DNA from: Escherichia phage vB_EcoM_phAPEC6
Reading direction: 5' to 3' (one strand)
Sequence record: MK817115.1
DNA length: 64,000 bases
In this document: in pieces, positions 3,597-27,734 of the stretch
Layout of the letters: every line of letters begins with the position of its first letter
Position numbering within the stretch: position 1 is the first letter of the stretch
Translations under genes and position numbers: made by a program
Notes under the pieces: generated by a model
Seen by the model: the letters and a program-made list of their open reading frames with translations, nothing else
Database searches by the model: none
Told to the model about the DNA's origin: nothing

Positions 3597-3605
3597 ATTT
3601 CATTC

Positions 3606-10791: not shown

Positions 10792-11192
10792 ACTTTACCA
10801 GGGAAGTGTTTCTCGTAGTACTCATCATCACTTAACATATAATCAGGAGTTTCTACTTCTATGGTTTTGAAGATTGTTTCTGGAATGTGTGTGACTTTAT
10901 TGGGTTGTACTTTATGTTCGCGTAAAACCTTCTGTATCGCTCCTAGACGTTGTAAATCGATACATGTAGGAAAGACTAAGCTGTACTGAAATAACTCATC
11001 AGGGGTCATTATAGACACATCTTTAGCTTGTTTGATTTGATAATTAGTACTAATGAATATATCAAATCCTTGTACAGCATTATAGCTTACATAGGTTGTT
11101 TTATTTTTGTCAATAGGAGCACTTAAACGATATCCATATATCCCGTGTTGGTCAACAAGACAGCGTTGCATAATTTTAATCATTTCTAACAT
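10779..11192 (-). CDS. FamA paralog
   Basis: core motif DELFQYSLVF. Confidence 0.6.
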   Translation of the reverse strand: MLEMIKIMQRCLVDQHGIYGYRLSAPIDKNKTTYVSYNAVQGFDIFISTNYQIKQAKDVSIMTPDELFQYSLVFPTCIDLQRLGAIQKVLREHKVQPNKVTHIPETIFKTIEVETPDYMLSDDEYYEKHFPGKVWRD

Positions 11193-11538
11193 AATTTACC
11201 TCATATGTATTGTAACACCACGGTTTAACAATATCGATTTGTATATCATTTGCTTCATGAAAATGTTTAAGTACCTTCTGGTATTCCATTATTTCGTACA
11301 CATCTTCAGTACTTATAGTGCTCTCCTGAAATAATTCCTCTTCTGATAAAGTACTATAATCAGGGATTTTTATTTCTGAATATATATCATTTATCTTTCC
11401 ATTATATTGATAAATCTGGATATAAAATTGATTGTATTCTGGAATATAGGTTACATAATGGTTGTGGTTGATTACATATCTTGAAACAAAGTATTCAGTA
11501 CCATCAGTCATGTACTGAATTGTTGTCGTATTTTGCAT
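11176..11538 (-). CDS. FamA paralog
   Basis: core motif EEELFQESTIS. Confidence 0.6.
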   Translation of the reverse strand: MQNTTTIQYMTDGTEYFVSRYVINHNHYVTYIPEYNQFYIQIYQYNGKINDIYSEIKIPDYSTLSEEELFQESTISTEDVYEIMEYQKVLKHFHEANDIQIDIVKPWCYNTYEVNYVRND

Positions 11539-11998
11539 TCAAATAATCCACGCATTTATAGTATACTGCTAAATCTAAAAAGAATCGTTGTTTGTATTTG
11601 TAATGATGAAGTAGTGCACCATAAAATAACATAGCATTAAGTACTTTTGTATCATTAATCAATGATTTCTGAAAGTACATTTCCTCTGACATGAATACTA
11701 AATCATTATATGGAACTTGTACTGCTTCTCTAAATGTATCAATATTAATCTTCAAATCAGACCCAGGGCAATATGAAATGTATTCTGCTTTGTAATGAAA
11801 GTCATTATTATCAAAGTACTCCGCGTAGATTTGATTACCTCTACCATTAGTAAATGCTAGTCTTCCTTTAGATGAACTGAACTCATCGTATTGAAACATA
11901 CCACCAAAAGGTTTAGGACTTCTGAACTCCTTTGCAATGCGATAGATATTTTCTGCAAATTCTAAAACACCATCGTAATCATATTCTGTAGTAATCAT
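11504..11998 (-). CDS. FamA paralog
   Basis: core motif EEMYFQKSLIN. Confidence 0.6.
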   Translation of the reverse strand: MITTEYDYDGVLEFAENIYRIAKEFRSPKPFGGMFQYDEFSSSKGRLAFTNGRGNQIYAEYFDNNDFHYKAEYISYCPGSDLKINIDTFREAVQVPYNDLVFMSEEMYFQKSLINDTKVLNAMLFYGALLHHYKYKQRFFLDLAVYYKCVDYLNAKYDNNSVHD

Positions 11999-12471
11999 AA
12001 ACCATTTTTCTCCAGGTACTCAATAATACAATCGACATTGTTCAGGTCCAAGTAGAAATGATCACTATCGGAATTTAGTTCATTTTTAAGGGCTGTTAAA
12101 ATCACTGAACTGAAAACAATCCTCTCTGGATACACAGTACTGTACTGGAAGAACTCTTCTTCAGTGTTAATTACAATCGTATCAAATGCTTCATTTATAA
12201 GAAGATGATTGTAGTATTTGAAATTATCTGAACTTGGGAAATGGTATGAAATAAAATCACCACTTGGTACTTCATCAAGCACTCTAATACTACAAGTTGA
12301 TTCATCTGAGCTATAGAGTAACCCATCCATAAAGGAAAGATATCCATTTCGTTTAATAACTTTATTTTTATCAATTAAAAAATCTTCAGTAACATTCGCA
12401 AGGAATTTATAAACCCTGATAATGTCTTTTGCTATTTTTTGTGCATTGCTAAATGATAGGTCTTTGGACAT
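11995..12471 (-). CDS. FamA paralog
   Basis: core motif EEEFFQYSTVY (verified by hand translation). Confidence 0.6.
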   Translation of the reverse strand: MSKDLSFSNAQKIAKDIIRVYKFLANVTEDFLIDKNKVIKRNGYLSFMDGLLYSSDESTCSIRVLDEVPSGDFISYHFPSSDNFKYYNHLLINEAFDTIVINTEEEFFQYSTVYPERIVFSSVILTALKNELNSDSDHFYLDLNNVDCIIEYLEKNGL

Positions 12472-12530
12472 TGTGTTATAACCCTTTACAATTAATATAA
12501 AGGGATTATATCACAAAAAATCGGTGGGTG

Positions 12531-13067
12531 TCAAGAGTGGTTGCGAAGTTCTACCATTTCTTCCCAAACTAATTGGTAATCTTCTAAGTCCAGATAGAAG
12601 TCTTCATTCCAGTGCTCATGAAAGTACTTATACATGAATAGAACTCCTAAATCGTATGCAGGAAACAATAATGATAGTTGAAAGTAGTATTCCTGATTTA
12701 AAACTATATCAATAAACTCTAATGTACGTATGCCACCTTTCGATGAACGTATCTCAATGTGTGAGGTATCCTTCATACTGTAACACATGAAACCACCTCT
12801 AAATTCTGGATCATATTCACATTCGAACTGCTCACTGTTGTTATAGAAATCTCTCCCACTTTCTTGATCTTTCGGTCTACGTACTGATACATGAATATTT
12901 TTATCACGGTACATTGAACGATTTAGTATTTTCAAACATTTGAACTTATCTTCTTTAATGAACTTGATAATATCAATTATATCTTGTGCTGTACTGATAG
13001 CTGATTCGAATGTATCCAACTTAAGATGATTATATTGGGTTCCAGAGTTCATTTTTTTATCTAACAT
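12531..13067 (-). CDS. FamA paralog
   Basis: core motif QEYYFQLSLLF; start moved to Met17 with GAGG RBS (track ORF to 13115). Confidence 0.55.
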   Translation of the reverse strand: MLDKKMNSGTQYNHLKLDTFESAISTAQDIIDIIKFIKEDKFKCLKILNRSMYRDKNIHVSVRRPKDQESGRDFYNNSEQFECEYDPEFRGGFMCYSMKDTSHIEIRSSKGGIRTLEFIDIVLNQEYYFQLSLLFPAYDLGVLFMYKYFHEHWNEDFYLDLEDYQLVWEEMVELRNHS

Positions 13068-13074
13068 ATAAACC

Positions 13075-13416
13075 TCATAATTCATACATTTTTGATTTGA
13101 ACTGCATATGACCACCTATTTCACATGGATAACAATTCATAATTTTGTTCAATAGAATCTGGTATTTTTTAATAACTTCTATATCAATTTTTATATTACT
13201 ATTAAAAACTAATGATTCTTGAAATAATTCCCCCTCGTCAAGTGAAGTAAAATCATTTATCTTCAAGGGTATATTGTTGCATCGCAAGGAGAATGTATTT
13301 TCATCACGAATTAAAGTATAGAAATCATTATGTTTTTTATTATAATCAAATTTAACAAGTAGTAGTTTAATATGAGTAGCGTACATTACTTTAACTAATT
13401 CAGATTCACGTCGCAT
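13075..13416 (-). CDS. FamA paralog
   Basis: core motif GELFQESLVF. Confidence 0.6.
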   Translation of the reverse strand: MRRESELVKVMYATHIKLLLVKFDYNKKHNDFYTLIRDENTFSLRCNNIPLKINDFTSLDEGELFQESLVFNSNIKIDIEVIKKYQILLNKIMNCYPCEIGGHMQFKSKMYEL

Positions 13417-13838
13417 ACAATACCTCTCTTATGATGCAAACATTCTTGCATAATGTGTTGTATTTTTCGTAACAGAAACACATCCAGTTCATTAAAAACA
13501 GTACTGTACTGGAACATCTCTTCTTCCCCGTACTCAGTTAAATCATCAATTTCATCTCTAGAAACAGCTACAATATTAAAACCACGTGTACTACAATAAC
13601 CCTTAGTAAGATAATATATGTACTTGTACTCTCCGTTGATATCTAAGAGATCTTGTGTGATACAGAAGCTTTTGGGTGACAGTTTATCATCAGGAACCAT
13701 ATGCCTTGCTTGTACATAGCAACGGATACCATCACCTATACTATATGTAATAACTTCAAATTCAATCTTCATAGGTGAATATAATCCTTTTATATTGCTC
13801 AGGTGCAGTACTGAAACGTTTGATTGGATAATTATCAA
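13395..13838 (-). CDS. FamA paralog
   Basis: core motif EEEMFQYSTVF; start uncertain (possible internal Met near 13772). Confidence 0.55.
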   Translation of the reverse strand: MIIIQSNVSVLHLSNIKGLYSPMKIEFEVITYSIGDGIRCYVQARHMVPDDKLSPKSFCITQDLLDINGEYKYIYYLTKGYCSTRGFNIVAVSRDEIDDLTEYGEEEMFQYSTVFNELDVFLLRKIQHIMQECLHHKRGIVCDVNLN

Positions 13839-14124
13839 AGATTCTTTTCATTTCTTTCTGGATTAAACATAAGAAATCAAAGTTACAATCGTACTTATTA
13901 TCCCATACTAAACTTTCTTGGAATAACTCATCCTCTTGCATTAGTGTAGTGTCAATTACATCTTCACGGACATAGCTATATACTTCATAGCTCTTGAAGC
14001 CATCTTCTGATAATTCTAATTCATATGCAGCCATATCAAACATATCATCATGGTTTGTCTTCAAAGATATTAAACAAGTAACTAATTTTTTAGTTGTATA
14101 GTATGTAATACTTAATGTGTTCAT
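13762..14124 (-). CDS. FamA paralog (FDKKY subfamily)
   Basis: motif DELFQESLVWDNKYDC. Confidence 0.6.
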   Translation of the reverse strand: MNTLSITYYTTKKLVTCLISLKTNHDDMFDMAAYELELSEDGFKSYEVYSYVREDVIDTTLMQEDELFQESLVWDNKYDCNFDFLCLIQKEMKRIFDNYPIKRFSTAPEQYKRIIFTYED

Positions 14125-14129
14125 TTGTT

Positions 14130-14732
14130 TTATACCTCAGTATATAGCTTACAATAGCTTTCATCGAAATTACAAACACTTCTCAAGTACTGACACAGGT
14201 CATTGAAAATATTTACATTTGATATATATACATTATCAAATTCTGTTCGTTGAAAGAATGTATACATAGAATTTGTAATATATCGCATTGCATCTTCACG
14301 TCCCATAGTTATATCATTTGTGAACATTGCATCTTCATCAGTACTGATGTGTTCTATTTTAAATGATTTCATAAATGGAATACTCTTTCCTAGGGCATAA
14401 CCATCACCATATGATGCTTCTACTGCACCTTTGGAATAAAGGAATTGATATAAGTCCGAATCACGATTATAAAAAGTACGACATACGGAGGAACATAATT
14501 TATTATCTATATGAAATAAAAATCTTTTAGCATTTTTGTCTAATACTATTCGCAATGCATCACTCTCTAGAAATATATCACCATCAAGCATAAATGAGAA
14601 CTGTACTAATGCTTTTTCTAAATCCGCTCGTTTGTGATAAATCATTTCCTGCATATATATAATATCATTTGCTAATTTCTTAAAAAACAAATGCACATCT
14701 GCACTACAACATTTATTTGCATTTATTGACAT
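14130..14732 (-). CDS. FamA paralog (divergent)
   Basis: motif variant DEDAMFTNDITM. Confidence 0.5.
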   Translation of the reverse strand: MSINANKCCSADVHLFFKKLANDIIYMQEMIYHKRADLEKALVQFSFMLDGDIFLESDALRIVLDKNAKRFLFHIDNKLCSSVCRTFYNRDSDLYQFLYSKGAVEASYGDGYALGKSIPFMKSFKIEHISTDEDAMFTNDITMGREDAMRYITNSMYTFFQRTEFDNVYISNVNIFNDLCQYLRSVCNFDESYCKLYTEV

Positions 14733-15283
14733 AATAGTTCCTTATACATATGATGTACTTTACAAATCTCATTATAGTATTTCATATCAATGTCATTTGT
14801 ATTAAAAACGGAAACAGACAATACTGCTAACTTATCAATTAAGTAATTATTATCGGCGTACTGTTTTAACTTATTGAACATATAGATGCATTTTATACTT
14901 AATTCATCATGCAACACACTGTTCTGAAAAATATTCTCTTCAGTATTAGGAGATAAGTAATCTTCAATTATATACGATAAACTACTATCGCAATCTTTAT
15001 AGATTGAAATTGATGGATGTAATGTGTCATACATTACACTAAACAGATCACCGTCATATGTGGATATTAAACTATTATTGGAAACAGTAGGATGATAATA
15101 TTTCAGTACTGAAAACTTTGAACAATCAGTGCAGTAAAAATGATCCATCCCTCGACGACTTTCGTATGAGAATAGTTTACTTGTATATTCAATCCCTTTG
15201 GTGCGACGGATTGTTTCATGCATTTCTGCACATTGCATTAAAATTACCATACGTTCAAACGCAAGATCTAAATCATCGTACAT
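14723..15283 (-). CDS. FamA paralog
   Basis: core motif EENIFQNSVLH. Confidence 0.6.
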   Translation of the reverse strand: MYDDLDLAFERMVILMQCAEMHETIRRTKGIEYTSKLFSYESRRGMDHFYCTDCSKFSVLKYYHPTVSNNSLISTYDGDLFSVMYDTLHPSISIYKDCDSSLSYIIEDYLSPNTEENIFQNSVLHDELSIKCIYMFNKLKQYADNNYLIDKLAVLSVSVFNTNDIDMKYYNEICKVHHMYKELLCQ

Positions 15284-15464
15284 AACGGATATCCTTCTTC
15301 AACGAATTAATATATTCCAAAATAACTTGTTCCTGATATTGGGTTCCCAAGTACATCAGTACTTTCAACTCTTTGAATTCAGTACTATATGAGTCTGTTT
15401 GCATCATTCTAGTAGAATATATATTGAATAGTTTAGCAATATCATCTTGGTCTATTATTTTCAT
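15273..15464 (-). CDS. FamB-like small protein
   Basis: C-terminal YLGTQYQEQVILEYI motif; dispersed copy inside FamA array. Confidence 0.55.
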   Translation of the reverse strand: MKIIDQDDIAKLFNIYSTRMMQTDSYSTEFKELKVLMYLGTQYQEQVILEYINSLKKDIRYVR

Positions 15465-15660
15465 TAACCCTCTTCTGTATTAGTTCCTGTAAGTGCTGAA
15501 TATAACCCTTCATTGCAACATCCTGTTTGTTAGAGCCAACGAAGAACAAGAGCTTAAAGTCATGGTAATCCATTTTTGGTTTAGTAGTGAACCATATGTC
15601 CCACACTGCACTCACAGTTCTCATGTATTCAATTCGATTAAATGTTTTTGAATACTTCAT
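15442..15660 (-). CDS. FamB-like small protein (divergent)
   Basis: FVGSNKQDVAMKGYI variant of FamB motif. Confidence 0.5.
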   Translation of the reverse strand: MKYSKTFNRIEYMRTVSAVWDIWFTTKPKMDYHDFKLLFFVGSNKQDVAMKGYIQHLQELIQKRVNENNRPR

Positions 15661-16174
15661 CGATGTTCATTGCCAATAAGTTAATATACAAATTACTGTT
15701 AAATGCTATCTGCAATTCCATATAGAACTGAATGATTGCATAGTCAGGGTCAGTACACGATAGTTGAAAACACTGTTCGTCGAATGCATTGTAATTGTAC
15801 TTAGGGATGTGAATTTCACGCTTCAAATCAGGTTGCCCCCACTTCATCGCGTACACACCAATGTTATTGTTCTTTTTCCTTTTCTTAAATGTTAATTGTT
15901 GAATATTTCCTGCGTTATCCAGGAAAATAGAATTATTCGACACAGGTGCACCAATAGAAAACAATGATGTATCAATTACGTGTTTCTCACGTACATCACA
16001 CTTCTGAAATGCACCTGTACCCTGTAATACACGATGAAAATTGTACTTCTCATTAACAACAGTACTAGGATCAATTAAACCAGTACTGCATTTTTTGAGT
16101 ACTGGTACGATGATACGAATCTTTTTTGATAAATCTTGTAATGCATCAAAGTCATTGATGTTAACTTTCATCAC
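15638..16174 (-). CDS. FamA paralog
   Basis: motif DEQCFQLSCTD. Confidence 0.55.
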   Translation of the reverse strand: MMKVNINDFDALQDLSKKIRIIVPVLKKCSTGLIDPSTVVNEKYNFHRVLQGTGAFQKCDVREKHVIDTSLFSIGAPVSNNSIFLDNAGNIQQLTFKKRKKNNNIGVYAMKWGQPDLKREIHIPKYNYNAFDEQCFQLSCTDPDYAIIQFYMELQIAFNSNLYINLLAMNIDEVFKNI

Positions 16175-16620
16175 TCAAATGTGGCCTCTTCAGTAGTAAC
16201 AAAATTGATTAGTGTATCCAGTTCAGCAGTGTCAAGATAAAATACATCCAGTACTGATTTCTGATATATTACACTGAATGTGCATAGATTGTCAAGCGTT
16301 CCTTGTTCATAAACAGTACTACCCTGGAAGTACCCTTCTTCAGTACTCAGGGATAAAATGTCTGAAATTTTAAAAGATTCTTCAGTCGCATGTCTTTCTA
16401 TATTAACTAAATGTCCGTTTCGGTTCAATGAAATATAATCGTATGCTAACTCAATTAGACTATAATTATCCGCATTAGTGTCAAATAAAGCGACAATTTT
16501 TCGTCTCAATCTCTCATCGTGATCATGGTTTTCATCAGCTAAGTATTCAGGATTTTCTTTGAAGAACTTAACAACTTTTAGAATATCATTTGCTTTCTTG
16601 ATTGCACTTTCGTAACTCAT
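16171..16620 (-). CDS. FamA paralog
   Basis: core motif EEGYFQGSTVY. Confidence 0.6.
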   Translation of the reverse strand: MSYESAIKKANDILKVVKFFKENPEYLADENHDHDERLRRKIVALFDTNADNYSLIELAYDYISLNRNGHLVNIERHATEESFKISDILSLSTEEGYFQGSTVYEQGTLDNLCTFSVIYQKSVLDVFYLDTAELDTLINFVTTEEATFE

Positions 16621-16925
16621 AATAATTCAACCACTCCATCTCTAAAGTACATATAACTACCACCATTGGATACTGTGAATTCTATTGTCCCCAATAATAT
16701 ATTATATTTTTTTATTTCACATGTAGTACTTGTAGTGTAAGGCTCACCATCTCCTAAGTACATTGACATATGACATAGAACTTTTCTACCAGCATATTTC
16801 TCTTCAAACGATTGTTCAAAACTATGCATAATTTGATTTAAAGCTGAAATGTAATTAATAAAGTCAGGTATTTCTGTCAATGAATTATAAACCGTACAAA
16901 GTGAATCAAATTCATTTTTAGTCAT
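16617..16925 (-). CDS. hypothetical protein
   Basis: ORF in array, no family motif. Confidence 0.5.
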   Translation of the reverse strand: MTKNEFDSLCTVYNSLTEIPDFINYISALNQIMHSFEQSFEEKYAGRKVLCHMSMYLGDGEPYTTSTTCEIKKYNILLGTIEFTVSNGGSYMYFRDGVVELL

Positions 16926-17239
16926 TATATTTCTATCTCAATGTAATCCTGTGTGATTAAGTAATCCCAATGATACTTCACCTGCTTTTGTAATTCAATT
17001 AACGTAAAGAAGTTGATCGATTTATCCCATACGAGCGATTCCTGGAAAATAAATGATTCATGTTCATCGTAATAATCACACTCTAAAAAATCAGGTATAT
17101 ATTCACTATCGTGAATGTATTCAACAAACGAACTAGCTTGGCATTTCTTTACTACTAGTAATAATGAATTATCATGATCAAACAGATACAATAAACTAAT
17201 TTCACCAGGGACGTACTGAACACTGAATAAGTTTTTCAT
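16925..17239 (-). CDS. FamA paralog
   Basis: core motif ESFIFQESLVW. Confidence 0.6.
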   Translation of the reverse strand: MKNLFSVQYVPGEISLLYLFDHDNSLLLVVKKCQASSFVEYIHDSEYIPDFLECDYYDEHESFIFQESLVWDKSINFFTLIELQKQVKYHWDYLITQDYIEIEI

Positions 17240-17688
17240 TCTATACCTTCTGGATCTTTACGAAGTTCTTCGAAATCCAAATAAAATCGAGGACAGTTAA
17301 CACTCTTTAAATACCACATAATAACTAATGCTTCAAGTACTTCATCATCGTAAACAGTACTGTTTTGGAAGTAATACTCTTCACTATCCCACGGACCATC
17401 CAGTACTTCATAATTCAAAATTAATGGTTTTTTGCGATTAATAAAACGAATGCTACCATTTTCAACATAACTAATAAATTCTGCATCTCTATTGTATTCA
17501 GAAAACGATATAGGACTATTGGAATTCAACCCAAGAATAACCCTTACACCAACGGAGTTATTATACATTTCATCTTTGTAGTAGTTGCCGTTCTCGGCTT
17601 TGTACACTTCTTTGAACTTTCCTGCCTTTATATCGTCAAAGTATCCATGTAGTTCTTTTGCTTTTTCAAGAGCACTTTGTAATGACAT
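17236..17688 (-). CDS. FamA1 subfamily paralog
   Basis: N-term MSLQSALEKAK, LDGPWDSEEYYFQNSTVY. Confidence 0.65.
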   Translation of the reverse strand: MSLQSALEKAKELHGYFDDIKAGKFKEVYKAENGNYYKDEMYNNSVGVRVILGLNSNSPISFSEYNRDAEFISYVENGSIRFINRKKPLILNYEVLDGPWDSEEYYFQNSTVYDDEVLEALVIMWYLKSVNCPRFYLDFEELRKDPEGIE

Positions 17689-18154
17689 TACCTTCTCCTA
17701 CAGTATTCTCTACATATTCATAATCAAAATAGAAACTACTGGAGTCAATACTTTTGAAATACCACATAATCACAATAACATCCAGTTCTTCTTCATTGTA
17801 CAACGTACTATTCTGGAAGTAATACTCTTCACTATCCCACGGACCTTCTAGTACTGAATAAGGAATGATAGTGTCATCAGCATCACTATCTGTGTTGTAG
17901 ATGGTAATATCTTCATTACGGCAATAACTAATGTACTGATTGTACATATGATATTCACAGTTATCACTGTCACCAGTATCAGTGTGCAGTACTAATGTTT
18001 CTGCACATATCTCGGACTCGTCATAATCGTCACGGTCTTTTACAAAAAATTCAGTATCAGATGTTTTATATACACCTGGAACTGAACCTTCTTGTACCAT
18101 AATCATATACTCATGAATCTTCTTTGCTTCTTTCAATGCACTTTGTAACGACAT
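17666..18154 (-). CDS. FamA1 subfamily paralog
   Basis: N-term MSLQSALKEAK, LEGPWDSEEYYFQNSTLY. Confidence 0.65.
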   Translation of the reverse strand: MSLQSALKEAKKIHEYMIMVQEGSVPGVYKTSDTEFFVKDRDDYDESEICAETLVLHTDTGDSDNCEYHMYNQYISYCRNEDITIYNTDSDADDTIIPYSVLEGPWDSEEYYFQNSTLYNEEELDVIVIMWYFKSIDSSSFYFDYEYVENTVGEGNVITKCS

Positions 18155-18597
18155 TACAAATCCCCTGAACTTAAATATTCACATGCTCCCCAGTCAAGAA
18201 AGAATGGTTCAAAATTCAATTCCTTAAAGTACCACAACACAACCAAGGAATCAAGCATTTCTTGGTTAAAAATGAAACTCTGTTGGAAGTAATACTCTTC
18301 AGTACCCCACGGGCCATCAAGTACCCCGAAGTCAACAGGTGCATTTGATGTGTCAAACGTAATCTTAGTACCTGGAATATATACAAAAAAACTAGTATAT
18401 TGACTACATGAAGAGTACTGTATAGTATTGTCTTTATCCTGTCCCATAAGTAAAATATCATCAGAGTATGTCTTTATACCTGATAGATAATACTCATCAC
18501 CAAATGCACTTACTTTATCACCATAGAACCCACTTTTTATGTTATCGTGGAAGTGATGTATTCTGTGTGCTAGTTCAAGTGCACTTGCTAAACTCAT
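18154..18597 (-). CDS. FamA1 subfamily paralog
   Basis: N-term MSLASALELAH, LDGPWGTEEYYFQQSFIF. Confidence 0.65.
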   Translation of the reverse strand: MSLASALELAHRIHHFHDNIKSGFYGDKVSAFGDEYYLSGIKTYSDDILLMGQDKDNTIQYSSCSQYTSFFVYIPGTKITFDTSNAPVDFGVLDGPWGTEEYYFQQSFIFNQEMLDSLVVLWYFKELNFEPFFLDWGACEYLSSGDL

Positions 18598-19064
18598 ATA
18601 TCCTCTTTAATAACTCGTAGTAGATCCAAGTCCAAATAGAAGCTAGGACAATCTGTATTATTAAAGTACCACAGAATGACAAGCTTGTCAAGTACATCTT
18701 CCTCGTAGATAGTATTCTGCTGGAAGTAGTACTCTTCACTTCCCCAGTCATTATCCAGTACTGAATACGGAAGATGTTTCTCTGCTGCACCAGATATAAT
18801 GTCAGAATCTTGTATTAAAATATCAGCATCACGACAGAAGTACATGTAATTATCTTCCAAATTAACATCACACCCATTGAGTGTTGTTTCAGAAGAATCT
18901 AAGTTTTCTTCATACATGTGAATGTACTCACTACTGTCATCGTATCTCATTCGACAATAAGATTTACCTTCCTTGAATAGATATCCATTGAGACAATTTG
19001 CTACAATTTCTTTGCTGCATAAATCAATTAACTTCGCAATCTCTAATGCTCTTTCTAAACTCAT
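18594..19064 (-). CDS. FamA1 subfamily paralog
   Basis: N-term MSLERALEIAK, LDNDWGSEEYYFQQNTIY. Confidence 0.65.
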   Translation of the reverse strand: MSLERALEIAKLIDLCSKEIVANCLNGYLFKEGKSYCRMRYDDSSEYIHMYEENLDSSETTLNGCDVNLEDNYMYFCRDADILIQDSDIISGAAEKHLPYSVLDNDWGSEEYYFQQNTIYEEDVLDKLVILWYFNNTDCPSFYLDLDLLRVIKEDI

Positions 19065-19065
19065 T

Positions 19066-19557
19066 TTAACCCCTGTTAATACCGTTATCTACAGTTTTCT
19101 TTACGTATTTGTAATCGAAATAGAAGTTCCCAGAACCAATACTTTTAAAGTACCACATAATTATAATAACATCAAGTACTTCATTATCGTATACAGTACT
19201 TTGTTGGAAGTAATACTCTTCACTATCCCACGGACCTTCCAGTACTTCACTCGGAATTATAATGTCATCGGAATCGCTATCAGTACTGTAGATGGTATCT
19301 GTATCATTAATATAGACCATGTACTCATTATGCATATTAATGAAGCATTCATAATCATTAGGGTCGGTATCCAGTACACACGTTTCTGTATCCAGTACGC
19401 ACGTTTCTGTATCTGAGCAGTCATTATAAAGGAGGTTATCCGGTACATAATATTGAGTACTTGTGTCTTTGAAAACACCGTAAACTGAACCTTCTTTTGC
19501 CATATTCATGTACTCATGAATCTTCTTTGCTTTTTCCAATGAACTCTGTAATGTCAT
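19066..19557 (-). CDS. FamA1 subfamily paralog
   Basis: N-term MTLQSSLEKAK, LEGPWDSEEYYFQQSTVY. Confidence 0.65.
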   Translation of the reverse strand: MTLQSSLEKAKKIHEYMNMAKEGSVYGVFKDTSTQYYVPDNLLYNDCSDTETCVLDTETCVLDTDPNDYECFINMHNEYMVYINDTDTIYSTDSDSDDIIIPSEVLEGPWDSEEYYFQQSTVYDNEVLDVIIIMWYFKSIGSGNFYFDYKYVKKTVDNGINRG

Positions 19558-19566
19558 TTTATAATC

Positions 19567-19926
19567 TCATATATTGAAATAATAATTATTCGTTCTTGAT
19601 GGGGATGGATTAAATACGTTTTCTTTTTCAAATCTCTTCATTTCATTTTGCAAAGAAACCATTTCTTCAAATGTACAGGAGTACTTATTCTTATCAAACA
19701 CTAATGCAGCCTGAAATAGTTCACCATCGTCCAGTACTGTATAATCTATAAGACTCTCAGATTCATAGTCATAGTCGTCATGTGATACATGAATAAATTT
19801 AAAACAAGAATCTTTGTAATGCATATATAAACTCAACTCATGTTCCGAGTCGCCCTTAATAAGATTACAGCACAAGTCCCATCCTTTAGGTAACTTATAA
19901 TAGTACATAGAATAATCATATGTCAT
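19567..19926 (-). CDS. FamA paralog (FDKKY subfamily)
   Basis: motif GELFQAALVFDKNKYSC. Confidence 0.6.
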   Translation of the reverse strand: MTYDYSMYYYKLPKGWDLCCNLIKGDSEHELSLYMHYKDSCFKFIHVSHDDYDYESESLIDYTVLDDGELFQAALVFDKNKYSCTFEEMVSLQNEMKRFEKENVFNPSPSRTNNYYFNI

Positions 19927-20279
19927 TCTTGAATTCCTAAATTGAATTTGTATTCTTGATTAATACTTGCATTGGGTTTATGCAAAGCAGCATACTCTTT
20001 CATTTCATTTTGTATTGCAATAACTTCTTCAAATGTACACAAGTACTTCTTATCAAATACTAATGATTCTTGGAATAGTTCTGCGGTATCCATTAATGTA
20101 TAGTCCGGCATATCTTGGTGTGGATACTGTAATGAACTGTAATCAATGAATGTAAATTTACCCTGAGTGTAATGAATATACTCATTTGCACTGTGCATTA
20201 AATCACCTTTGTTTAAATTACAAAAGTACTGATAACTGTGCTTGAAAGTATGTACTGATATTAAAAAATCAAATTCCAT
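19923..20279 (-). CDS. FamA paralog (FDKKY subfamily)
   Basis: motif AELFQESLVFDKKYLC. Confidence 0.6.
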   Translation of the reverse strand: MEFDFLISVHTFKHSYQYFCNLNKGDLMHSANEYIHYTQGKFTFIDYSSLQYPHQDMPDYTLMDTAELFQESLVFDKKYLCTFEEVIAIQNEMKEYAALHKPNASINQEYKFNLGIQE

Positions 20280-20650
20280 CAGTACTCAACCTCTACATAA
20301 ATAGATTCAGGAAACTTAGTCATATAATCTTCTGGATAGTTCTGCATTACTTTGATCATTTCTGCCTGTGTAGCACGGACGTATTCAATTGGTGCTCCTG
20401 GTAAATTCCAGACAGTACTTTCCTGAAAGAATTCCTCTTCTGACAGTACTGTCAGATTTACAAAATCATTACGGTAATTTTTTGAATCATCATATGTGAA
20501 GATTTTAAAAGACCCATTTTCATATAGTACAAGAACAAAATGGGAGAATTTTTGTAATGCACCACCAAGGCTTTCCACGACCGCATGATTCAGTGTACAG
20601 ATGACCTCTTTTTTCCTCATACCGAATTGAATTCTAATTTCTTTTTTCAT
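20279..20650 (-). CDS. FamA paralog
   Basis: core motif EEEFFQESTVW. Confidence 0.6.
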   Translation of the reverse strand: MKKEIRIQFGMRKKEVICTLNHAVVESLGGALQKFSHFVLVLYENGSFKIFTYDDSKNYRNDFVNLTVLSEEEFFQESTVWNLPGAPIEYVRATQAEMIKVMQNYPEDYMTKFPESIYVEVEY

Positions 20651-20808
20651 AAAATCTCCTTCAGATTAGTACTGAATTTGTACAGAATATTAGAACTGTA
20701 TACAGCCTCTGTATCTGTATCCATAATCAAATCACCTTTGTTTAAATTACAAAAGTACTGATAACTGTGCTTAAAAGAATGTACTGATATTAAAAAATCA
20801 AATTCCAT
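20647..20808 (-). pseudogene. truncated duplicate of the 5' end of FamA gene 19923..20279
   Basis: 53-codon ORF; first ~27 aa (MEFDFLISVHSFKHSYQYFCNLNKGDL) and ~85 nt of DNA near-identical to start of 19923..20279, then diverges; no FQxS motif. Confidence 0.45.
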
Positions 20809-21185
20809 CACTCTTCCCCTAGATTGAAATGATTACAAAAATCATCTTCACCAGTACTGCACCAGATATCTATACATTCCCTGTGAATACATTTAATTCT
20901 ACGCTGTAATTCAATCATCTCTTCTAATGTACAGATGTACTTCTTATCAAATACTAATGCCGCCTGAAACAGTGCAGCATCATCAAGTACTGTATAGTCC
21001 AACATCTCGGTTGCTTTACCCCTAAACCCAGTACTAAAATCCATCAAATAAAAGTCAGCATTCCAGTACTTTAAAATCTTGTCCCTAGCGTAGTTTAAAT
21101 CACCCTTGTATAAGTTAGAGTGCGTAACTAACTCACCAGTGTACATCCATGTCCTTGCACAAAATTCATTATATTTTATTTCCAT
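20808..21185 (-). CDS. FamA paralog (FDKKY subfamily)
   Basis: motif AALFQAALVFDKKYIC; start moved to Met37 (MEIKYNEF), track ORF to 21293 reads through intergenic DNA. Confidence 0.55.
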   Translation of the reverse strand: MEIKYNEFCARTWMYTGELVTHSNLYKGDLNYARDKILKYWNADFYLMDFSTGFRGKATEMLDYTVLDDAALFQAALVFDKKYICTLEEMIELQRRIKCIHRECIDIWCSTGEDDFCNHFNLGEE

Positions 21186-21381
21186 CTTAATCTCTACTAT
21201 AATTAATAAGGTAAACTCCAATATAAGGAGCACGTTGCGGGGGCGGGGTATTTTTTGTTTCAGGAAACATGAACTGTACTCTGAAAAACACAATATAAAA
21301 CTTTATATTAAACATATACCTTAGCATGTTTTTCAGCGGAAATTTTTTTGACCCCCTGCGGCCTGTCAAAACGAAACGTCT

Positions 21382-21606
21382 CTATTTATTCAGCCTAGAA
21401 ACCTTGATTTCTTCAATCCTTTTCATTGCACAAAGCCTTCGACTCGTCCTCTCGTATATATTCAATACTCGCTGTAATGCATTATCTGTATTATCTGCAA
21501 CTGCAATCTGAACCAAATATGTATCCTTCAAAATAGAATCCATCATGAATTCAAAACCTTTCACACTAAAGCAATATGCCACTTCCGGCTCTTCAAACGT
21601 AATCAT
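21382..21606 (-). CDS. hypothetical protein
   Basis: ORF-track ORF, same strand, no family motif. Confidence 0.45.
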   Translation of the reverse strand: MITFEEPEVAYCFSVKGFEFMMDSILKDTYLVQIAVADNTDNALQRVLNIYERTSRRLCAMKRIEEIKVSRLNK

Positions 21607-21796
21607 AATTCCAATCCCCTATTCCCTCTAACCTTCTAAGATATCTTGCGTAAATTATTTCGAAATATCTGTGCAACGAAATTACGGATTGCTCATAATC
21701 ATCATTCCTGTACATTGTGCATGTCAGAAAATCATTTAACCCAAAATCTAAACTGCACTTGAACTTCTCCTTAGCAACATCTCTAAAATTATTCAT
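21593..21796 (-). CDS. hypothetical protein
   Basis: ORF-track ORF, same strand. Confidence 0.45.
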   Translation of the reverse strand: MNNFRDVAKEKFKCSLDFGLNDFLTCTMYRNDDYEQSVISLHRYFEIIYARYLRRLEGIGDWNYDYV

Positions 21797-21950
21797 AATA
21801 TGTCCTCTGTACAGCGTAGGTGTACTGTGAACTCAGCACCACTAATAGGTAATCTATATTGTAAGCACGATTTCCTCGTTGACTAGCACGGCTGGAATAA
21901 AGAATATTATCCACATATGTATTGAACTGATCTTCAAATAACTCTTTCAT
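21789..21950 (-). CDS. small hypothetical protein (53 aa)
   Basis: hand-translated ORF, no internal stops, overlaps start of downstream gene. Confidence 0.35.
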   Translation of the reverse strand: MKELFEDQFNTYVDNILYSSRASQRGNRAYNIDYLLVVLSSQYTYAVQRTYYE

Positions 21951-21978
21951 CAGCATTATACCATCACATAATCATACA

Positions 21979-22530
21979 TCATACATTAACAACTTTATCG
22001 ATGTAATCTTCTAACATATCAATATATCTGGTATTGGTTCTAACTAAAAGGTATGCAAATCCAGAGAACTCCTGTGTATAATGCTTTACAGCGTACATAC
22101 AACGAAGCTTATCATTGTCATACATTGTACTGTACTGAAACAAACTCTCGTCTGATAGCTCTAATAACGCTTGGGCTTCACTTCTCGTGAACTTCATAGG
22201 GTCATGTACTGCATCACAAAAACAAACCTGTGTCTCGCTATTGAAACCCTGTGATAGATATATACCTTCACACTCTGAACGCACCGATACTGCATTATAA
22301 CTATGTGTTGCCCCCATCATATCTGAACTCAAAACTAAAATCAACCCATTTTTATTTTTAATCAACAAATCTGACTTAAGGGATTTGATCTCCGTATGGG
22401 AAATATCACCAAATCTTCCTGGGACTTCAAACTTATCAACGTTGTATACAATCTTTTGTACTTGCTCTTTTAAACGCTTAATTGCACTTCTGTCTTTTTC
22501 TAATGTATCTAATAAACTCATTGAACTCAT
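21979..22530 (-). CDS. FamA paralog
   Basis: core motif DESLFQYSTMY; start at Met25 behind AAGGAAAG RBS (track ORF to 22602). Confidence 0.55.
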   Translation of the reverse strand: MSSMSLLDTLEKDRSAIKRLKEQVQKIVYNVDKFEVPGRFGDISHTEIKSLKSDLLIKNKNGLILVLSSDMMGATHSYNAVSVRSECEGIYLSQGFNSETQVCFCDAVHDPMKFTRSEAQALLELSDESLFQYSTMYDNDKLRCMYAVKHYTQEFSGFAYLLVRTNTRYIDMLEDYIDKVVNV

Positions 22531-22540
22531 TGTACTTTCC

Positions 22541-22882
22541 TTACATATTTGTACCGAACAAAACGGAACTGCGAACGTCATTGATCGACAATTCATGTAC
22601 ATATATATTTTGTCTGAACAAAGGAACTAATTGAACTAAACTTTGTTGCATAACAATATGCATATGTAAATTGTCATATGCCGTTTCGTATTGGAAACGT
22701 GCTGCTTCATCTTCTATGAAATTAGGAACTTGGACTGGATTTTCAAAATTTGTTCTTGAACTGAACTGCACATCATTATCCTGTACTTTAATACCATATG
22801 CATTATCATCATCATATACATCTAATTCAATTAAACTACCATCACTTTTTATGTTTACCACACAAACCGAAAATCGACTCAT
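22541..22882 (-). CDS. FamA paralog (divergent)
   Basis: motif variant EAARFQYETAY. Confidence 0.5.
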   Translation of the reverse strand: MSRFSVCVVNIKSDGSLIELDVYDDDNAYGIKVQDNDVQFSSRTNFENPVQVPNFIEDEAARFQYETAYDNLHMHIVMQQSLVQLVPLFRQNIYVHELSINDVRSSVLFGTNM

Positions 22883-23394
22883 AAACCTATTTCCTCTAAA
22901 TCTTTGACAAATGTATCATAATCCGATAATGACAAAAATATGTCTGTACTGATGTTTTGACGTAATGTATTAAACAAATTATGTACCTGTAATAAATCAG
23001 GTGCATAAATCAGGGATTGCTGGAAATACGATTCTTCTGTATCTAATATATCCCTGCACTCAATTTCACGAACTCGTTGGTATATTGAATTTAATAATAC
23101 ATTTTCATCTTTGAGCATTGGAAGGTATCTGATGTACATGTGCTCCATCAACTCATCCTGGATTGAACCCCTGAACTGCAACACGTATTCAAAACACATC
23201 ACTACATCTTGTAGGTAATTGGCACTGTAATTATTGCTGTAAACAATCTTATGACTTCTGAACTCATCATCATTTCTGAACCAATCGTCACCCACTTTGG
23301 TGTACTTATGACTAAGCTTCCCATCCTCCAACGCTCGAATGAACTTCATAATGTTAATTGCAAAATCATATGAATGATGCTTGTGTTGATGCAT
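22879..23394 (-). CDS. FamA paralog
   Basis: core motif EESYFQQSLIY. Confidence 0.6.
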   Translation of the reverse strand: MHQHKHHSYDFAINIMKFIRALEDGKLSHKYTKVGDDWFRNDDEFRSHKIVYSNNYSANYLQDVVMCFEYVLQFRGSIQDELMEHMYIRYLPMLKDENVLLNSIYQRVREIECRDILDTEESYFQQSLIYAPDLLQVHNLFNTLRQNISTDIFLSLSDYDTFVKDLEEIGL

Positions 23395-23402
23395 TTTTTA
23401 CC

Positions 23403-23597
23403 TCAATTCTGTCCGAAAAAATAACCAAAATGTTTAAAACAAGAAAGCATTACTATGTTCATCACTCTATCATCAAATTCATCTTGTGTTTCTGCACATA
23501 ATGTTTCACAGATATTCAAATGTAATAATTCAAGCTGGAAACTGTCGGTGAACCAATCAAACTTACGGTATTTTTGTTTAACATCAACTGTAAGCAT
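23403..23597 (-). CDS. hypothetical protein
   Basis: ORF-track ORF in array. Confidence 0.4.
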   Translation of the reverse strand: MLTVDVKQKYRKFDWFTDSFQLELLHLNICETLCAETQDEFDDRVMNIVMLSCFKHFGYFFGQN

Positions 23598-23598
23598 A

Positions 23599-24222
23599 CT
23601 ATATATCCAACCCTTTTACAACATCTACGAAATGTTCAAACACTTCTTTTGAAAAATAACCACCTTCACAAAAAAGCATACTAAACGGTGGCAGCATGTC
23701 CGATAACTCTTTAGCTAAATTGATTTCTGCTCTTAACTCTTGAACATCAATGATATCATGTACTAACGATAATTGAAACATGAATGCATCTACATCTTCA
23801 TTCATTTCTGAATTGTAATATAACTCTTCAGGGAATTTGTCGGTTTCGTAATAATAAAAAACTTTATTGTTGAACACACCACTAATAGGAACATCATTTT
23901 CATCTTTCTTTGAAATGTTTGTTTCCCATGACTCTATATTATTAGGAACAAAAAAATCATAGGCTGATTTTGAACCCTGTACTGAATCCAACTTTATTCC
24001 ATAATATTCCGTATCCATGTATTTCTGCTGTAATGTAATACCACGTGTACTGACATTCACTTGGAATATATCATCTTTATCTGGAACACTAAATGGAATA
24101 CATAACACTGAATTCTCAGGGTATTTGGCAATGAATGCATCCAGCACTTTATTAAGCACCGGAATGGCAATTTTACTGTACTGCATCAAATCATACATTT
24201 TAATTCTGGTCATATCATTCAC
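23599..24222 (-). CDS. FamA paralog
   Basis: core motif DAFMFQLSLVH. Confidence 0.6.
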   Translation of the reverse strand: MNDMTRIKMYDLMQYSKIAIPVLNKVLDAFIAKYPENSVLCIPFSVPDKDDIFQVNVSTRGITLQQKYMDTEYYGIKLDSVQGSKSAYDFFVPNNIESWETNISKKDENDVPISGVFNNKVFYYYETDKFPEELYYNSEMNEDVDAFMFQLSLVHDIIDVQELRAEINLAKELSDMLPPFSMLFCEGGYFSKEVFEHFVDVVKGLDI

Positions 24223-24742
24223 CTGTGTATGTTTTCACCCTTAGCGATTCAAAATCCCATACATCACTGATTGTACCATTGTGCCTGTAATCATAATATT
24301 CTACTAATACATTATACAATAACTTCAACGATACAAATTCATGATTCCACGGAGCTTTATTCTCATGAACACATTTGGTGATATAAGGTATAATATATAA
24401 ACTAAACAACACTAATGGTGAATGTATACATTGCATTTGAAAATATTCTTCTTCTTGCATACAATGCTCAGGAATAATCAATTCCGTATGTGACCCTAAG
24501 CTATACGAACCTGCTGTGTATTTTTTCGTATCACATGCGTACCATATTGTACTATCCGAAATAAATGGAATGATACCATTATTGTTTGCAATGTACATCA
24601 TATGGTAAGAGCGATTTGTCTTGTTAAATATCTCAATACTTTCGATATTACTACAAATCATGTATTCAATGCAATCAATAATCTTATCTTTAAATGCACC
24701 AATTTCATTGAATGTCATTGATTTCTGCACTTCACTGCTCAT
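24215..24742 (-). CDS. FamA paralog
   Basis: motif EEEYFQMQCIH. Confidence 0.55.
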   Translation of the reverse strand: MSSEVQKSMTFNEIGAFKDKIIDCIEYMICSNIESIEIFNKTNRSYHMMYIANNNGIIPFISDSTIWYACDTKKYTAGSYSLGSHTELIIPEHCMQEEEYFQMQCIHSPLVLFSLYIIPYITKCVHENKAPWNHEFVSLKLLYNVLVEYYDYRHNGTISDVWDFESLRVKTYTGE

Positions 24743-25281
24743 ATGTTCTCCTTAAAAAAATTCAAATACTCTTCATTGAAAGCATATGTATCATCTTTTT
24801 TGTTATGCACCACATAATCATAAAGAGCTATGAATGCAGGGATTATGATCTTACATGATTTATTATTGTATTTGTACTGCTCCAAATCAACGGTGTTCAA
24901 TTTAGCAATAAGCATAGCAGCAAAGATATCTTCATGGCGGTGTACTGTGCTGTACTGAAAATATTCATCCTCTCCAATATCGGGATGATATAACGGTATA
25001 ACCAAATTATTACGAATTGACATCTTATATTTTTGTAATGCAGCTAAATGTATGAACCACAATCTATCTTCATTGAAATATGGAAAAATAATTTTGTCTG
25101 TGCTAATAAAAATTTCTTCATTTCGATTATTTGTCACAAGAGGTGCATACATTTTAATTTTTGCAGATTTAATAATTAAATTAAAAATATAATGAATCTT
25201 ATGAACTGCACTTGATGCATCTTCGTATGTACTTGGGATTATGAAACTCACTATATGTTCTCCTTTAAAATGAATACACAT
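24739..25281 (-). CDS. FamA paralog
   Basis: core motif EDEYFQYSTVH. Confidence 0.6.
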   Translation of the reverse strand: MCIHFKGEHIVSFIIPSTYEDASSAVHKIHYIFNLIIKSAKIKMYAPLVTNNRNEEIFISTDKIIFPYFNEDRLWFIHLAALQKYKMSIRNNLVIPLYHPDIGEDEYFQYSTVHRHEDIFAAMLIAKLNTVDLEQYKYNNKSCKIIIPAFIALYDYVVHNKKDDTYAFNEEYLNFFKENI

Positions 25282-25333
25282 GATAACAGCTTTGGTCTTC
25301 TATGTCAATACCAAAACGAAAAAAGCCCATATC

Positions 25334-27534: not shown

Positions 27535-27734
27535 AATTTACCTATCGATGGATACCTAGGATTTGTAGGATGTAAAATCCTGTCCTGTACTGAAAGGTGC
27601 TCAAATGTAATTAAACTCAAATAATAATCGTAATTATCAATACCACCCTTCAAATGTATATTGTAATACATCTTAATACTATCTAATAATGAATCCTGTA
27701 ATGCATTTAATGTTATCGTATTAATCTTTTGCAT
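27531..27734 (-). CDS. hypothetical protein
   Basis: ORF-track ORF. Confidence 0.45.
   Translation of the reverse strand: MQKINTITLNALQDSLLDSIKMYYNIHLKGGIDNYDYYLSLITFEHLSVQDRILHPTNPRYPSIGKL

What the first reader, a model, noticed from the sequence alone, without database searches (positions are those of the whole stretch)
17236..19557. Five consecutive FamA1 genes: recent tandem amplification
Five adjacent genes share the same architecture: N-terminus MSLQSALEKAK-like, internal L[DE]GPW(D/G)xEEYYFQ(N/Q)S, C-terminal IMWYFK..FY(F/L)D. They differ mainly by a variable insert in the middle. This looks like the youngest amplification inside the FamA array and a good place to read how the family diversifies.
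Basis: seen in the sequence. Interest (0 to 1): 0.6.

Follow-up and report, generated by a model that had tools for sequence, protein, structure and literature searches.

The report
Old five-gene paralogue block, jumbo coliphage
Five neighbouring genes in a giant E. coli phage really are close relatives of one another, but they duplicated long ago rather than recently, have each been kept as a separate gene ever since, and encode small acidic proteins whose function and fold are still unknown.

Summary
17236-19557 (minus strand) contains five abutting ORFs (147-163 aa) that share the N-terminal helix, the GPW..EEYYFQ motif and the WYFK..FYxD tail. They are the tightest subfamily (PHROG 9317) of a 40-member tandem array (1331-30006) in an Asteriusvirus jumbo coliphage (99% to G17/PBECO4/phAPEC6).

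The interpretation "recent amplification" fails. The copies are only 30-58% identical in protein and 47-71% in DNA, and synonymous sites are saturated (dS 1.07 to infinity). Each of the five positions forms its own clade across the ten genomes placed in the tree, so the duplications predate this phage clade.

Copy number is 5 in 24 of 35 records, 4 in nine and 3 in two, and never more. All copies are under purifying selection (dN/dS 0.05-0.5). Present-day diversification comes from:
- a 21-bp repeat present in 1-3 copies in the acidic insert of p5;
- loss or replacement of the edge genes;
- recombination breakpoints at gene boundaries.

The parts
17236..17688 (-). p1, 150 aa, subfamily member (PHROG 9317), pI 4.66
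   Evidence: ORF. phrog_9317 E = 5e-60. Family HMM E = 8e-32. Two deep alleles exist (69% aa between the window and the SP27/EC.P1/ph0011 type). AF2 model pLDDT 78.5.
17666..18154 (-). p2, 162 aa, the most constrained copy and sister of p5
   Evidence: ORF. phrog_9317 E = 9e-66. 58% aa and 71% nt identity to p5. Orthologue dN/dS 0.05-0.09. Its 3' end overlaps the start of p1 by 23 nt.
18154..18597 (-). p3, 147 aa, the most divergent copy
   Evidence: ORF. phrog_9317 E = 3e-55. 30-35% aa identity to the others. Its TAA stop overlaps the p2 ATG by 1 nt.
18594..19064 (-). p4, 156 aa, motif variant LDNDWGSEEYYFQQN
   Evidence: ORF. phrog_9317 E = 6e-59. ATGA overlap with the p3 start.
19066..19557 (-). 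p5, 163 aa, sister of p2, 100% identical to phAPEC6 gp442c
   Evidence: ORF. phrog_9317 E = 3e-65. Identical to P0002. Absent from ph0011 and WPEC5, where a 61-aa unrelated ORF sits in its place.
19367..19413 (-). 21-bp tandem repeat (2.2 copies) inside p5, encoding DTETCVL in the acidic insert; copy number is polymorphic between isolates
   Evidence: TRF, 96% matches. One copy in JP4, UE-S1, P0188 and P0003; two in the window, G17, 121Q, PBECO4, SP27 and EC.P1; three in P0196.
1331..30006 (-). Extent of the parent array: 40 paralogous genes (103-207 aa) of which the five are one subfamily; F-Q is invariant in all 40
   Evidence: Iterative HMM search of window ORFs converged at 40 members. Alignment A2 has F107/Q108 invariant.
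17650..17700 (.). Recombination breakpoint at the p1/p2 junction relative to the SP27/EC.P1/WPEC5/ph0011 lineage
   Evidence: In 100-nt windows, nucleotide identity to SP27 is 63-85% from 16900 to 17699, 91% at 17700-17799, and 95-100% from 17800 to 19699. dS is 0.74 in p1 against 0.02-0.20 in p2-p5.

Best explanation
SHOWN: The five ORFs are real, co-oriented protein-coding genes. They are packed head to tail (junctions +1, -4, -1, -23, -4 nt), and each start is preceded by a Shine-Dalgarno-like GGAG/GAGG/GGGG inside the end of the previous gene. This suggests one polycistronic, translationally coupled unit.

They form one subfamily (PHROG 9317) of a roughly 40-member tandem array of small, mostly acidic proteins in an Asteriusvirus (PBECO4/121Q/G17/phAPEC6-type) jumbo coliphage.

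They arose by local duplication, but anciently. Synonymous sites between copies are saturated. Each of the five slots is a separate orthologous lineage in the ten related genomes placed in the tree.

Since then every copy has been maintained under purifying selection, which implies five non-redundant jobs rather than gene dosage. What changes today is:
(i) point substitution;
(ii) short indels and slippage of a 21-bp repeat in the disordered acidic insert;
(iii) loss or replacement of the edge genes (p1 in A4, p5 in ph0011/WPEC5);
(iv) homologous recombination between phage lineages, with breakpoints at gene boundaries.

INFERRED (about 0.3 confidence): the proteins are non-enzymatic intracellular binding proteins for host take-over or counter-defence.
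- They share one alpha/beta scaffold. Its invariant [ST]-E-E-x-[YFL]-F-Q segment is the N-capped start of a buried helix, i.e. structural.
- Specificity would reside in the N-terminal helix, the acidic insert and the sheet surface.
For: Genes and subfamily.

Ancient duplication:
- nt identity 47-71% and dS at least 1.07;
- position-specific clades in ten genomes;
- exactly five places per genome in 24 of 35 records, and never more.

Purifying selection: orthologue dN/dS 0.05-0.5 for whole genes and 0.05-0.78 in every partition.

Coupled operon anatomy.

Diversification modes:
- repeat copy number 1-3;
- p5 missing in ph0011/WPEC5;
- p1 slot replaced in A4, and only three members in Turkey5;
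- breakpoint at the p1/p2 junction and whole-cassette swaps next door.

Non-virion: phAPEC6 gp442c equals p5, and the virion MS table lists nothing between gp347 and gp549 (PMC7247149).

Acidic: pI 4.05-4.66, net charge -10 to -26.

No enzyme signature: only F and Q are invariant across the 40 paralogues, and there is no Pfam, PADLOC or PDB hit.

Scaffold: two AF2 models with pLDDT 78.5 and 84. The motif lies in a helix with pLDDT about 97, and the insert has pLDDT below 50.
Against: Function is not demonstrated by anything here.
- There are no expression data for this phage group.
- The sigma-70-like promoter scan is not enriched (93 found against 112 +/- 9 expected), so 'early' timing is a guess.
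- Absence from a virion proteome (62 proteins detected) does not prove absence from virions.
- Pairwise dN/dS cannot exclude positive selection at a few sites.

On the age of the duplications:
- The p2/p5 split (dS 1.07) is not much older than the deepest orthologue divergence (dS 0.91).
- A4 carries a p2-slot gene only 61% identical to the window's p2, so the age of that one duplication relative to the genus is less secure.
- The tree is neighbour-joining without bootstrap.
Confidence: 0.75

Rival explanations
1. Recent tandem amplification: the five copies were generated lately, as in a viral 'gene accordion', and are just starting to diverge.
For: They are the most self-similar cluster in the array. 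They are contiguous. A 32-35-nt exact nucleotide match survives over the motif in p1, p2 and p5.
Against: - 30-58% aa and 47-71% nt identity, with dS saturated.
- Positional orthologues in ten genomes.
- Copy number never exceeds five in 35 records.
- Codon identity in the motif is not significantly above the rest of the gene (one of ten pairs at p = 0.007 uncorrected).
Confidence: 0.04
2. Only the p2/p5 pair is comparatively young: a duplication at about the base of, or within, the genus that was then spread or lost by recombination. p1, p3 and p4 are much older.
For: - p2/p5 dS is 1.07, against the deepest p2 orthologue dS of 0.91.
- ph0011 and WPEC5 carry p2 but not p5.
- A4 has a p5-like gene (78%), and its p2-slot gene is only 61% identical to the window's p2.
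- Turkey5 lacks recognisable p2 and p5 (its three members match p4 and p1). JNE01's best match to p2 is likewise only 34%.
Against: - In the tree all ten p2 genes form a clade that excludes p5.
- WPEC5 p2 groups with EC.P1 p2, and EC.P1 does have p5. This implies loss of p5 rather than late gain.
- p2 and p5 are separated by p3 and p4.
Confidence: 0.2
3. Concerted evolution: the five are kept similar by gene conversion between copies, so their similarity overstates relatedness, and the subfamily is no younger than the rest of the array.
For: The long identical nucleotide tract over GPWDSEEYYFQ. Recombination is demonstrably active in the region.
Against: - Copies cluster by position, not by genome.
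- No conversion tracts appear outside the motif: the longest exact matches elsewhere are 11-13 nt.
- The motif's codon identity is explained by amino-acid identity plus codon bias.
Confidence: 0.05
4. Structural role: the proteins are virion components, for example part of the hair-like fibres of these phages.
For: These phages carry unusual whisker or hair structures whose components are incompletely assigned (PMC7247149).
Against: - None of the array's genes is among the 62 virion proteins of phAPEC6; there is a gap between gp347 and gp549, and p5 equals gp442c.
- The proteins are small and globular, with a disordered acidic insert.
Confidence: 0.03
5. The E-E-x-Y-F-Q-[NQG]-S motif is a protease recognition site. 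It resembles TEV (ExxYxQ|S/G) and 3C (LFQ|G) sites, so the family would be a set of substrates or decoys for a Gln-specific protease.
For: From memory, the motif superficially resembles the TEV and 3C consensus sites. F-Q is invariant in all 40 paralogues.
Against: - In both models the motif is helical and among the most confident, buried parts (pLDDT about 97; H103-109 in p1, H65-75 in the short form), not an exposed loop.
- The preceding S/T-E-E fits a helix N-capping box.
- I did not scan the window or the genome for a 3C-like protease. The only protease I saw listed for this phage group is the prohead core scaffold/protease in the phAPEC6 virion table.
Confidence: 0.02

Closest known systems
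PHROG 9317 (and sibling PHROGs 12674, 15629, 13866, 30243, 34636), all 'unknown function'
   Same: All five proteins match phrog_9317 end to end (E = 3e-55 to 9e-66). The neighbours match the sibling PHROGs, with weak cross-hits between them.
   Different: PHROGs only clusters the sequences. It gives no function, no structure and no statement that they form one 40-member array or five positional orthologue lineages.
Tandem gene arrays of jumbo phages noted by Hua et al. [quoted passage not shown]
   Same: Same phage group (121Q), and the same interpretation of tandem duplication as a route to genome expansion.
   Different: It is a single sentence. It is unclear whether it refers to this array or to the adjacent array of about 27 genes with the LGTNYQE motif. 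'Very similar' does not describe this family (median about 25% identity). No dating, orthology or structure was given.
Uncharacterised paralogue families of Rak2-like jumbo phages (Klebsiella RaK2, Cronobacter GAP32, Serratia BF, Yersinia fHe-Yen9-04)
   Same: Foldseek against BFVD finds the same predicted fold in several RaK2 proteins (H6X4L9 E = 4e-4; H6X4N1 E = 0.016) and, at non-significant E-values (0.06-0.4), in GAP32, Serratia BF and Yersinia fHe-Yen9-04 proteins. The RaK2 paper states that about 10% of its gene products are paralogues of one another (PMC3622015).
   Different: Sequence similarity is too low for HMMER. The ten profile hits whose source I looked up were all Asteriusvirus phages or E. 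coli assemblies, apart from two partial stray entries. The five-gene subfamily itself exists only in 35 Escherichia/Salmonella phage records.
Poxvirus-type 'gene accordion' and lineage-specific expansions in large viruses (e.g. the ~35-copy zinc-ribbon expansion in Bacillus phage G, PMC7824862)
   Same: A tandem multi-copy family in the accessory part of a very large viral genome. It is plausibly used in host interaction (for phage G; the poxvirus comparison is from my own knowledge).
   Different: Accordions are transient and near-identical, with variable copy number. Here the copies are old and diverged, and the number is essentially fixed at five.

Membership tests
PHROG 9317 subfamily | Full-length match to the phrog_9317 profile | tested here: met
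   E = 3e-55 to 9e-66, covering profile positions 1-155/160 or more for all five.
40-member 'FamA' array of this phage | Significant match to the family HMM and possession of the invariant F-Q preceded by an acidic [ST]-E-E-type stretch | tested here: met
   E = 1e-27 to 6e-32. F107/Q108 invariant in A2. Motif listing.
Recent tandem amplification / gene accordion | Near-identical copies with unsaturated synonymous sites | tested here: not met
   nt identity 47-71%; dS 1.07 to infinity.
Recent tandem amplification / gene accordion | Copies of one genome cluster together, or copy number varies upward between close relatives | tested here: not met
   Position-specific clades. Five copies in 24 of 35 records, 3-4 in the rest, and never more than five.
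Known anti-phage-defence system proteins (PADLOC models); no anti-defence (counter-defence) library was available | Profile match to a described family | tested here: not met
   No PADLOC hit at E up to 1. No Pfam hit above threshold. PADLOC covers defence systems, not phage counter-defence proteins, so this is only a partial test.
Acidic DNA-mimic proteins (Ocr/ArdA-like in behaviour) | Strongly negative surface that imitates the DNA backbone, and binding to DNA-binding enzymes | not testable with these tools
TEV/3C-type protease cleavage site | Motif exposed in an extended, accessible segment, and a cognate Gln-specific protease present | tested here: not met
   The motif is in a confidently predicted helix. 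The presence of a cognate protease was not tested.
Virion structural proteins of Asteriusvirus | Detected in purified particles by mass spectrometry | tested here: not met
   phAPEC6 Table 1 lists no gene product between gp347 and gp549, and p5 equals gp442c.

The most novel reading that the evidence does not exclude
The 40-member family, including these five, is a new protein fold. A jumbo phage would use it as a combinatorial toolkit of inhibitors or adaptors, with each long-maintained copy neutralising a different host factor or defence system. The strongly acidic, repeat-bearing insert of the PHROG 9317 copies would act as a nucleic-acid mimic. The five-gene block would then be a fixed 'pentad' of distinct specificities rather than redundancy.
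Probability: 0.15. Interest if true: 0.7.

Novelty: new member of a known kind. Interest (0 to 1): 0.3.

Why it matters
Tandem paralogue arrays are a recognised way for jumbo phage genomes to grow. This case adds a dated, well-resolved example showing that such an array can be old and stable: five positional orthologues, each under purifying selection. That argues the copies have distinct functions.

About 8% of this phage's genome (30 kb) is spent on one uncharacterised family with no detectable fold relative among solved structures. Working out what one member binds would probably explain a large block of 'dark matter' in Rak2-like phages, some of which are being developed for therapy.

Tried and rejected
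1. Semi-global identity with free end gaps gave spurious 50-60% values from tiny overlaps. I replaced it with BLASTP bit scores.

2. Nucleotide-level constraint on the motif.
- The 32-35-nt exact match suggested a DNA/RNA signal or conversion tract.
- Family-wide, however, the motif's codons vary freely.
- Within the five, codon identity is not significantly higher than elsewhere.
- Rejected as a signal.

3. Function by homology. All of these were empty:
- Pfam and PADLOC;
- a PDB sequence profile at E up to 10;
- BFVD, which returned only uncharacterised Rak2-like phage proteins.
The afdb50 library was unavailable.

4. Profile search of 1.84 billion representatives. It gave 157 hits, all 65-204 aa and each matched in a single stretch, so no large fused partner domains. 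All ten sampled were Asteriusvirus phages or E. coli assemblies, apart from two partial stray entries.

5. Promoter and terminator scan. Sigma-70-like sites are not enriched, so there is no inference on timing.

6. Rfam and tRNA scans of the window found nothing.

7. The plus-strand ORFs 17585-17851 and 18973-19416 mirror each other only because they are antisense to the paralogues p2 and p5. Together with the strongly negative GC skew, I treated them as non-genes.

8. One literature query was too generic and wasted. The 29 papers mentioning Asteriusvirus appear, from their titles and abstracts, to be genome reports and surveys; none addresses this family.

9. CMSTMSU (an UNVERIFIED record with a fragmented, apparently frameshifted gene set in this block) was excluded from the copy-number reasoning.
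Full report
**Source.** The window is an Asteriusvirus-type jumbo coliphage. Region 16000-21000 is 99.3% identical to Escherichia phage vB_EcoM_G17, 99.2% to SHEFM2K, 99.0% to PBECO4 (over the 86% of the query it covers) and 94.6% to 121Q. The p5 protein is 100% identical to phAPEC6 gp442c. GC content is 31-34% with strongly negative GC skew over 1-30 kb, which fits minus-strand coding.

**Observation.** Five minus-strand ORFs occupy exactly 17236-19557:
- p1, 17236-17688
- p2, 17666-18154
- p3, 18154-18597
- p4, 18594-19064
- p5, 19066-19557

Their alignment confirms the N-terminal MSLQSALEKAK-type helix, the V-L-[DE]-G-P-W-x-x-EEYYFQ core (p4 deviates: LDNDW...FQQN) and the WYFK...FYxD tail. 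There are 19 invariant columns. Most of the length variation sits in the middle.

The junctions are +1, -4, -1, -23 and -4 nt. Each start codon is preceded by a GGAG/GAGG/GGGG element within the preceding gene's last codons. The block therefore looks like one translationally coupled operon segment. Every GenBank record I inspected that carries annotation calls these genes 'hypothetical protein'.

**Family context.** An iterative HMM search started from the five converges on 40 paralogues between 1331 and 30006, all on the minus strand. In the 40-sequence alignment only the initiator Met and F-Q (F107, Q108 of p1) are invariant. The usual context is [ST]-E-E-x-[YFL]-F-Q-x-S.

In all-against-all BLASTP, each of the five has the other four as its best partners (63-183 bits). 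Nothing else reaches above 42 bits against them. The only other visible cluster is 19567-19926 / 19923-20279 / 20808-21185 (64-89 bits). PHROGs reflects this. All five belong to phrog_9317 and their neighbours to sibling PHROGs, all of unknown function.

**Age of the duplications.** Codon alignments give 47-55% nucleotide identity for nine pairs and 71% for p2/p5. dS is 1.07 for p2/p5 and 1.2 to infinity for the rest; dN is 0.27-0.80.

I fetched the homologous region from G17, 121Q, JP4, PBECO4, SP27, ph0011, WPEC5, UE-S1 and EC.P1.
- Eight of the ten genomes (counting the window) have five copies at the same positions.
- ph0011 and WPEC5 have four. In these the p5 slot holds a 61-aa unrelated ORF.
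- A neighbour-joining tree puts every position in its own clade across genomes. (p2, p5) are sisters, p1 is next, and p3 and p4 are deeper.

tblastn of p2 against 50,697 phage records finds the subfamily only in 35 Escherichia/Salmonella phage records. There are five places in 24 records, four in nine and three in two, and never more than five.
- In A4 the p1 slot holds a distant family member, and the p2-slot gene is only 61% identical to the window's p2.
- In Turkey5 only three diverged members remain.

The amplification therefore predates the PBECO4/121Q clade and is not ongoing. The only reservation concerns p2/p5. Their dS (1.07) is close to the deepest orthologue dS (0.91, window against ph0011).

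**Selection and modes of change.** Orthologue dN/dS is 0.05-0.09 for p2 and about 0.2-0.46 for p1, p3 and p4 at appreciable divergence. When the genes are partitioned into N-helix, insert, sheet and motif plus C-terminus, every partition has omega below 1 (0.05-0.78). The highest values fall in the beta-sheet segment, not the insert. The ORFs are thus real genes, each separately constrained.

Three kinds of ongoing change are visible.
- A 21-bp tandem repeat at 19367-19413 encodes DTETCVL in the acidic insert of p5. It is present once (JP4, UE-S1), twice (the window and most others) or three times (P0196).
- Recombination produces a mosaic. Against SP27/EC.P1/WPEC5/ph0011, per-gene identity is 53-81% from 16171 through p1. 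Against SP27, 100-nt windows then rise through 91% (17700-17799) to 95-100% from 17800 onward, placing the breakpoint at the p1/p2 junction. 121Q and UE-S1 show patchy 77-100% blocks in p3 and p4.
- Whole genes are swapped or lost at the edges. Examples are 16617-16925, 20279-20650, p5 and the p1 slot in A4.

The 32-35-nt exact match over the motif in p1, p2 and p5 is not a significant excess of codon identity. Family-wide, the motif's codons vary.

**What the proteins are.**
- There is no Pfam family, no PADLOC model and no PDB sequence match to the family profile even at E up to 10.
- AlphaFold2 with the 40 paralogues as the alignment gives a confident model of p1 (pLDDT 78.5, pTM 0.75). It has an N-terminal helix at 3-21, a disordered insert at 28-50, four strands at 62-91, helices at 93-97, 103-109 (the EEYYFQN motif, pLDDT about 97) and 115-129, a strand at 135-138 and a final helix at 139-143.
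- The short-form member 19923-20279 models better (pLDDT 84, pTM 0.79). It has five strands, two helices and a last strand.
- Foldseek against viral models returns only uncharacterised proteins of 121Q, SP27 and RaK2, plus weaker, non-significant matches (E 0.06-0.4) in GAP32, Serratia BF and Yersinia fHe-Yen9-04.
- A profile search of 1.84 billion representative proteins finds 157 hits, all 65-204 aa and each matched in a single stretch. Those I sampled were all Asteriusvirus phages or E. coli assemblies, apart from two partial stray entries.
- The five are strongly acidic (pI 4.05-4.66, net charge -10 to -26); the family median pI is 4.9.
- None of the array's products is among the 62 virion proteins of phAPEC6 (PMC7247149).

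**Mechanism.** Shown: ancient tandem duplication, retention of five positional orthologues under purifying selection, operon-like packing, and diversification by slippage, recombination and cassette exchange.

Inferred: the invariant S/T-E-E-x-hydrophobic-F-Q segment is a helix N-cap plus buried core, i.e. a determinant of the fold. No catalytic-type residue is conserved. So these are most likely non-enzymatic intracellular binding proteins on a common scaffold, with specificity in the variable N-helix, acidic insert and sheet surface. A role in host take-over or counter-defence is plausible but untested. The superficial resemblance of the motif to TEV and 3C cleavage sites is most likely coincidental, because the motif is helical and buried.

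**Literature.**
- Hua et al. [quoted passage not shown]
- The RaK2 paper notes that about 10% of its proteins are paralogues.
- The phAPEC6 paper repeats the tandem-duplication idea.
- The remaining papers that mention Asteriusvirus appear, from their titles and abstracts, to be genome reports and surveys.
- None analyses this family, its subfamilies, age or structure.

**Verdict.** In kind this is an ordinary lineage-specific paralogue expansion in a jumbo phage, of unknown function. Interest is modest. The more interesting object is the whole 40-member family with an unmatched predicted fold.

Noticed in passing
window 30240-36225 (minus strand); strays at 15273-15464 and 15442-15660: A second, unrelated tandem array of about 27 abutting genes of 66-104 aa sharing an LGT[ND]YQE motif. 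Two likely members of the same family (LGTQYQEQ; the second only VGSNKQD, judged by eye) sit inside the FamA array. This may be the '>30 very similar genes' of Hua et al. 2017.
   Followed up: partly
window 20726-20834 vs 20197-20307: A direct repeat (100/113 identical overall; the core of about 85 nt is about 96% identical) duplicates the ribosome-binding site and the first ~28 codons of gene 19923-20279. The upstream copy starts a 54-aa ORF (20647-20811). The repeats flank the 20279-20650 cassette, which only the window, G17 and 121Q carry. This looks like a recent insertion or recombination scar, and it is the only truly recent duplication near the finding.
   Followed up: partly
window 16617-16925 and 20279-20650: Whole-gene cassette replacements between phage lineages. 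16617-16925 is non-homologous (about 53% nt) in SP27, ph0011, WPEC5 and EC.P1, where a 444-474-nt gene sits instead. 20279-20650 is absent from seven of nine relatives.
   Followed up: partly
window 17236-19557, 3' ends of p5, p4, p3 and p2: The last codons of each gene (…GINRG, …IKEDI, …SSGDL, …GEGNV…) encode the Shine-Dalgarno sequence of the next gene. The Gly/Glu/Asp-rich C-terminal tails may therefore be shaped by the downstream ribosome-binding site rather than by protein function.
   Followed up: no
protein clusters of p1, p3 and p5 (P0002, P0007, P0012 and members): Many NCBI assemblies labelled 'Escherichia coli' contain 345-360-kb contigs carrying these genes, i.e. complete virulent jumbo-phage genomes inside bacterial isolate assemblies. 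Two partial entries are labelled Actinomadura adrarensis and are probably contamination. This fits recent reports of lytic phages in bacterial assemblies.
   Followed up: no
window 17585-17851 (+) and 18973-19416 (+): Long plus-strand ORFs (88 and 147 aa) whose translations resemble each other only because they are antisense to the paralogues p2 and p5. They are probably not genes.
   Followed up: no
window ~36000 and ~56000: GC content steps up from 0.31-0.35 to 0.37-0.40 at about 36 kb, where the small-gene arrays end. GC skew changes sign at about 56 kb, suggesting a switch of coding strand. From 36-56 kb the relatives share only 34-54% of the sequence, so it is a highly mosaic region.
   Followed up: no
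L011 (Escherichia phage Turkey5) 2672-5460: In this divergent Asteriusvirus lineage the subfamily has only three clear members (57% to p4; 33-36% to p1). They are interleaved with a different FamA member, so the block's composition differs outside the PBECO4/121Q clade.
   Followed up: partly
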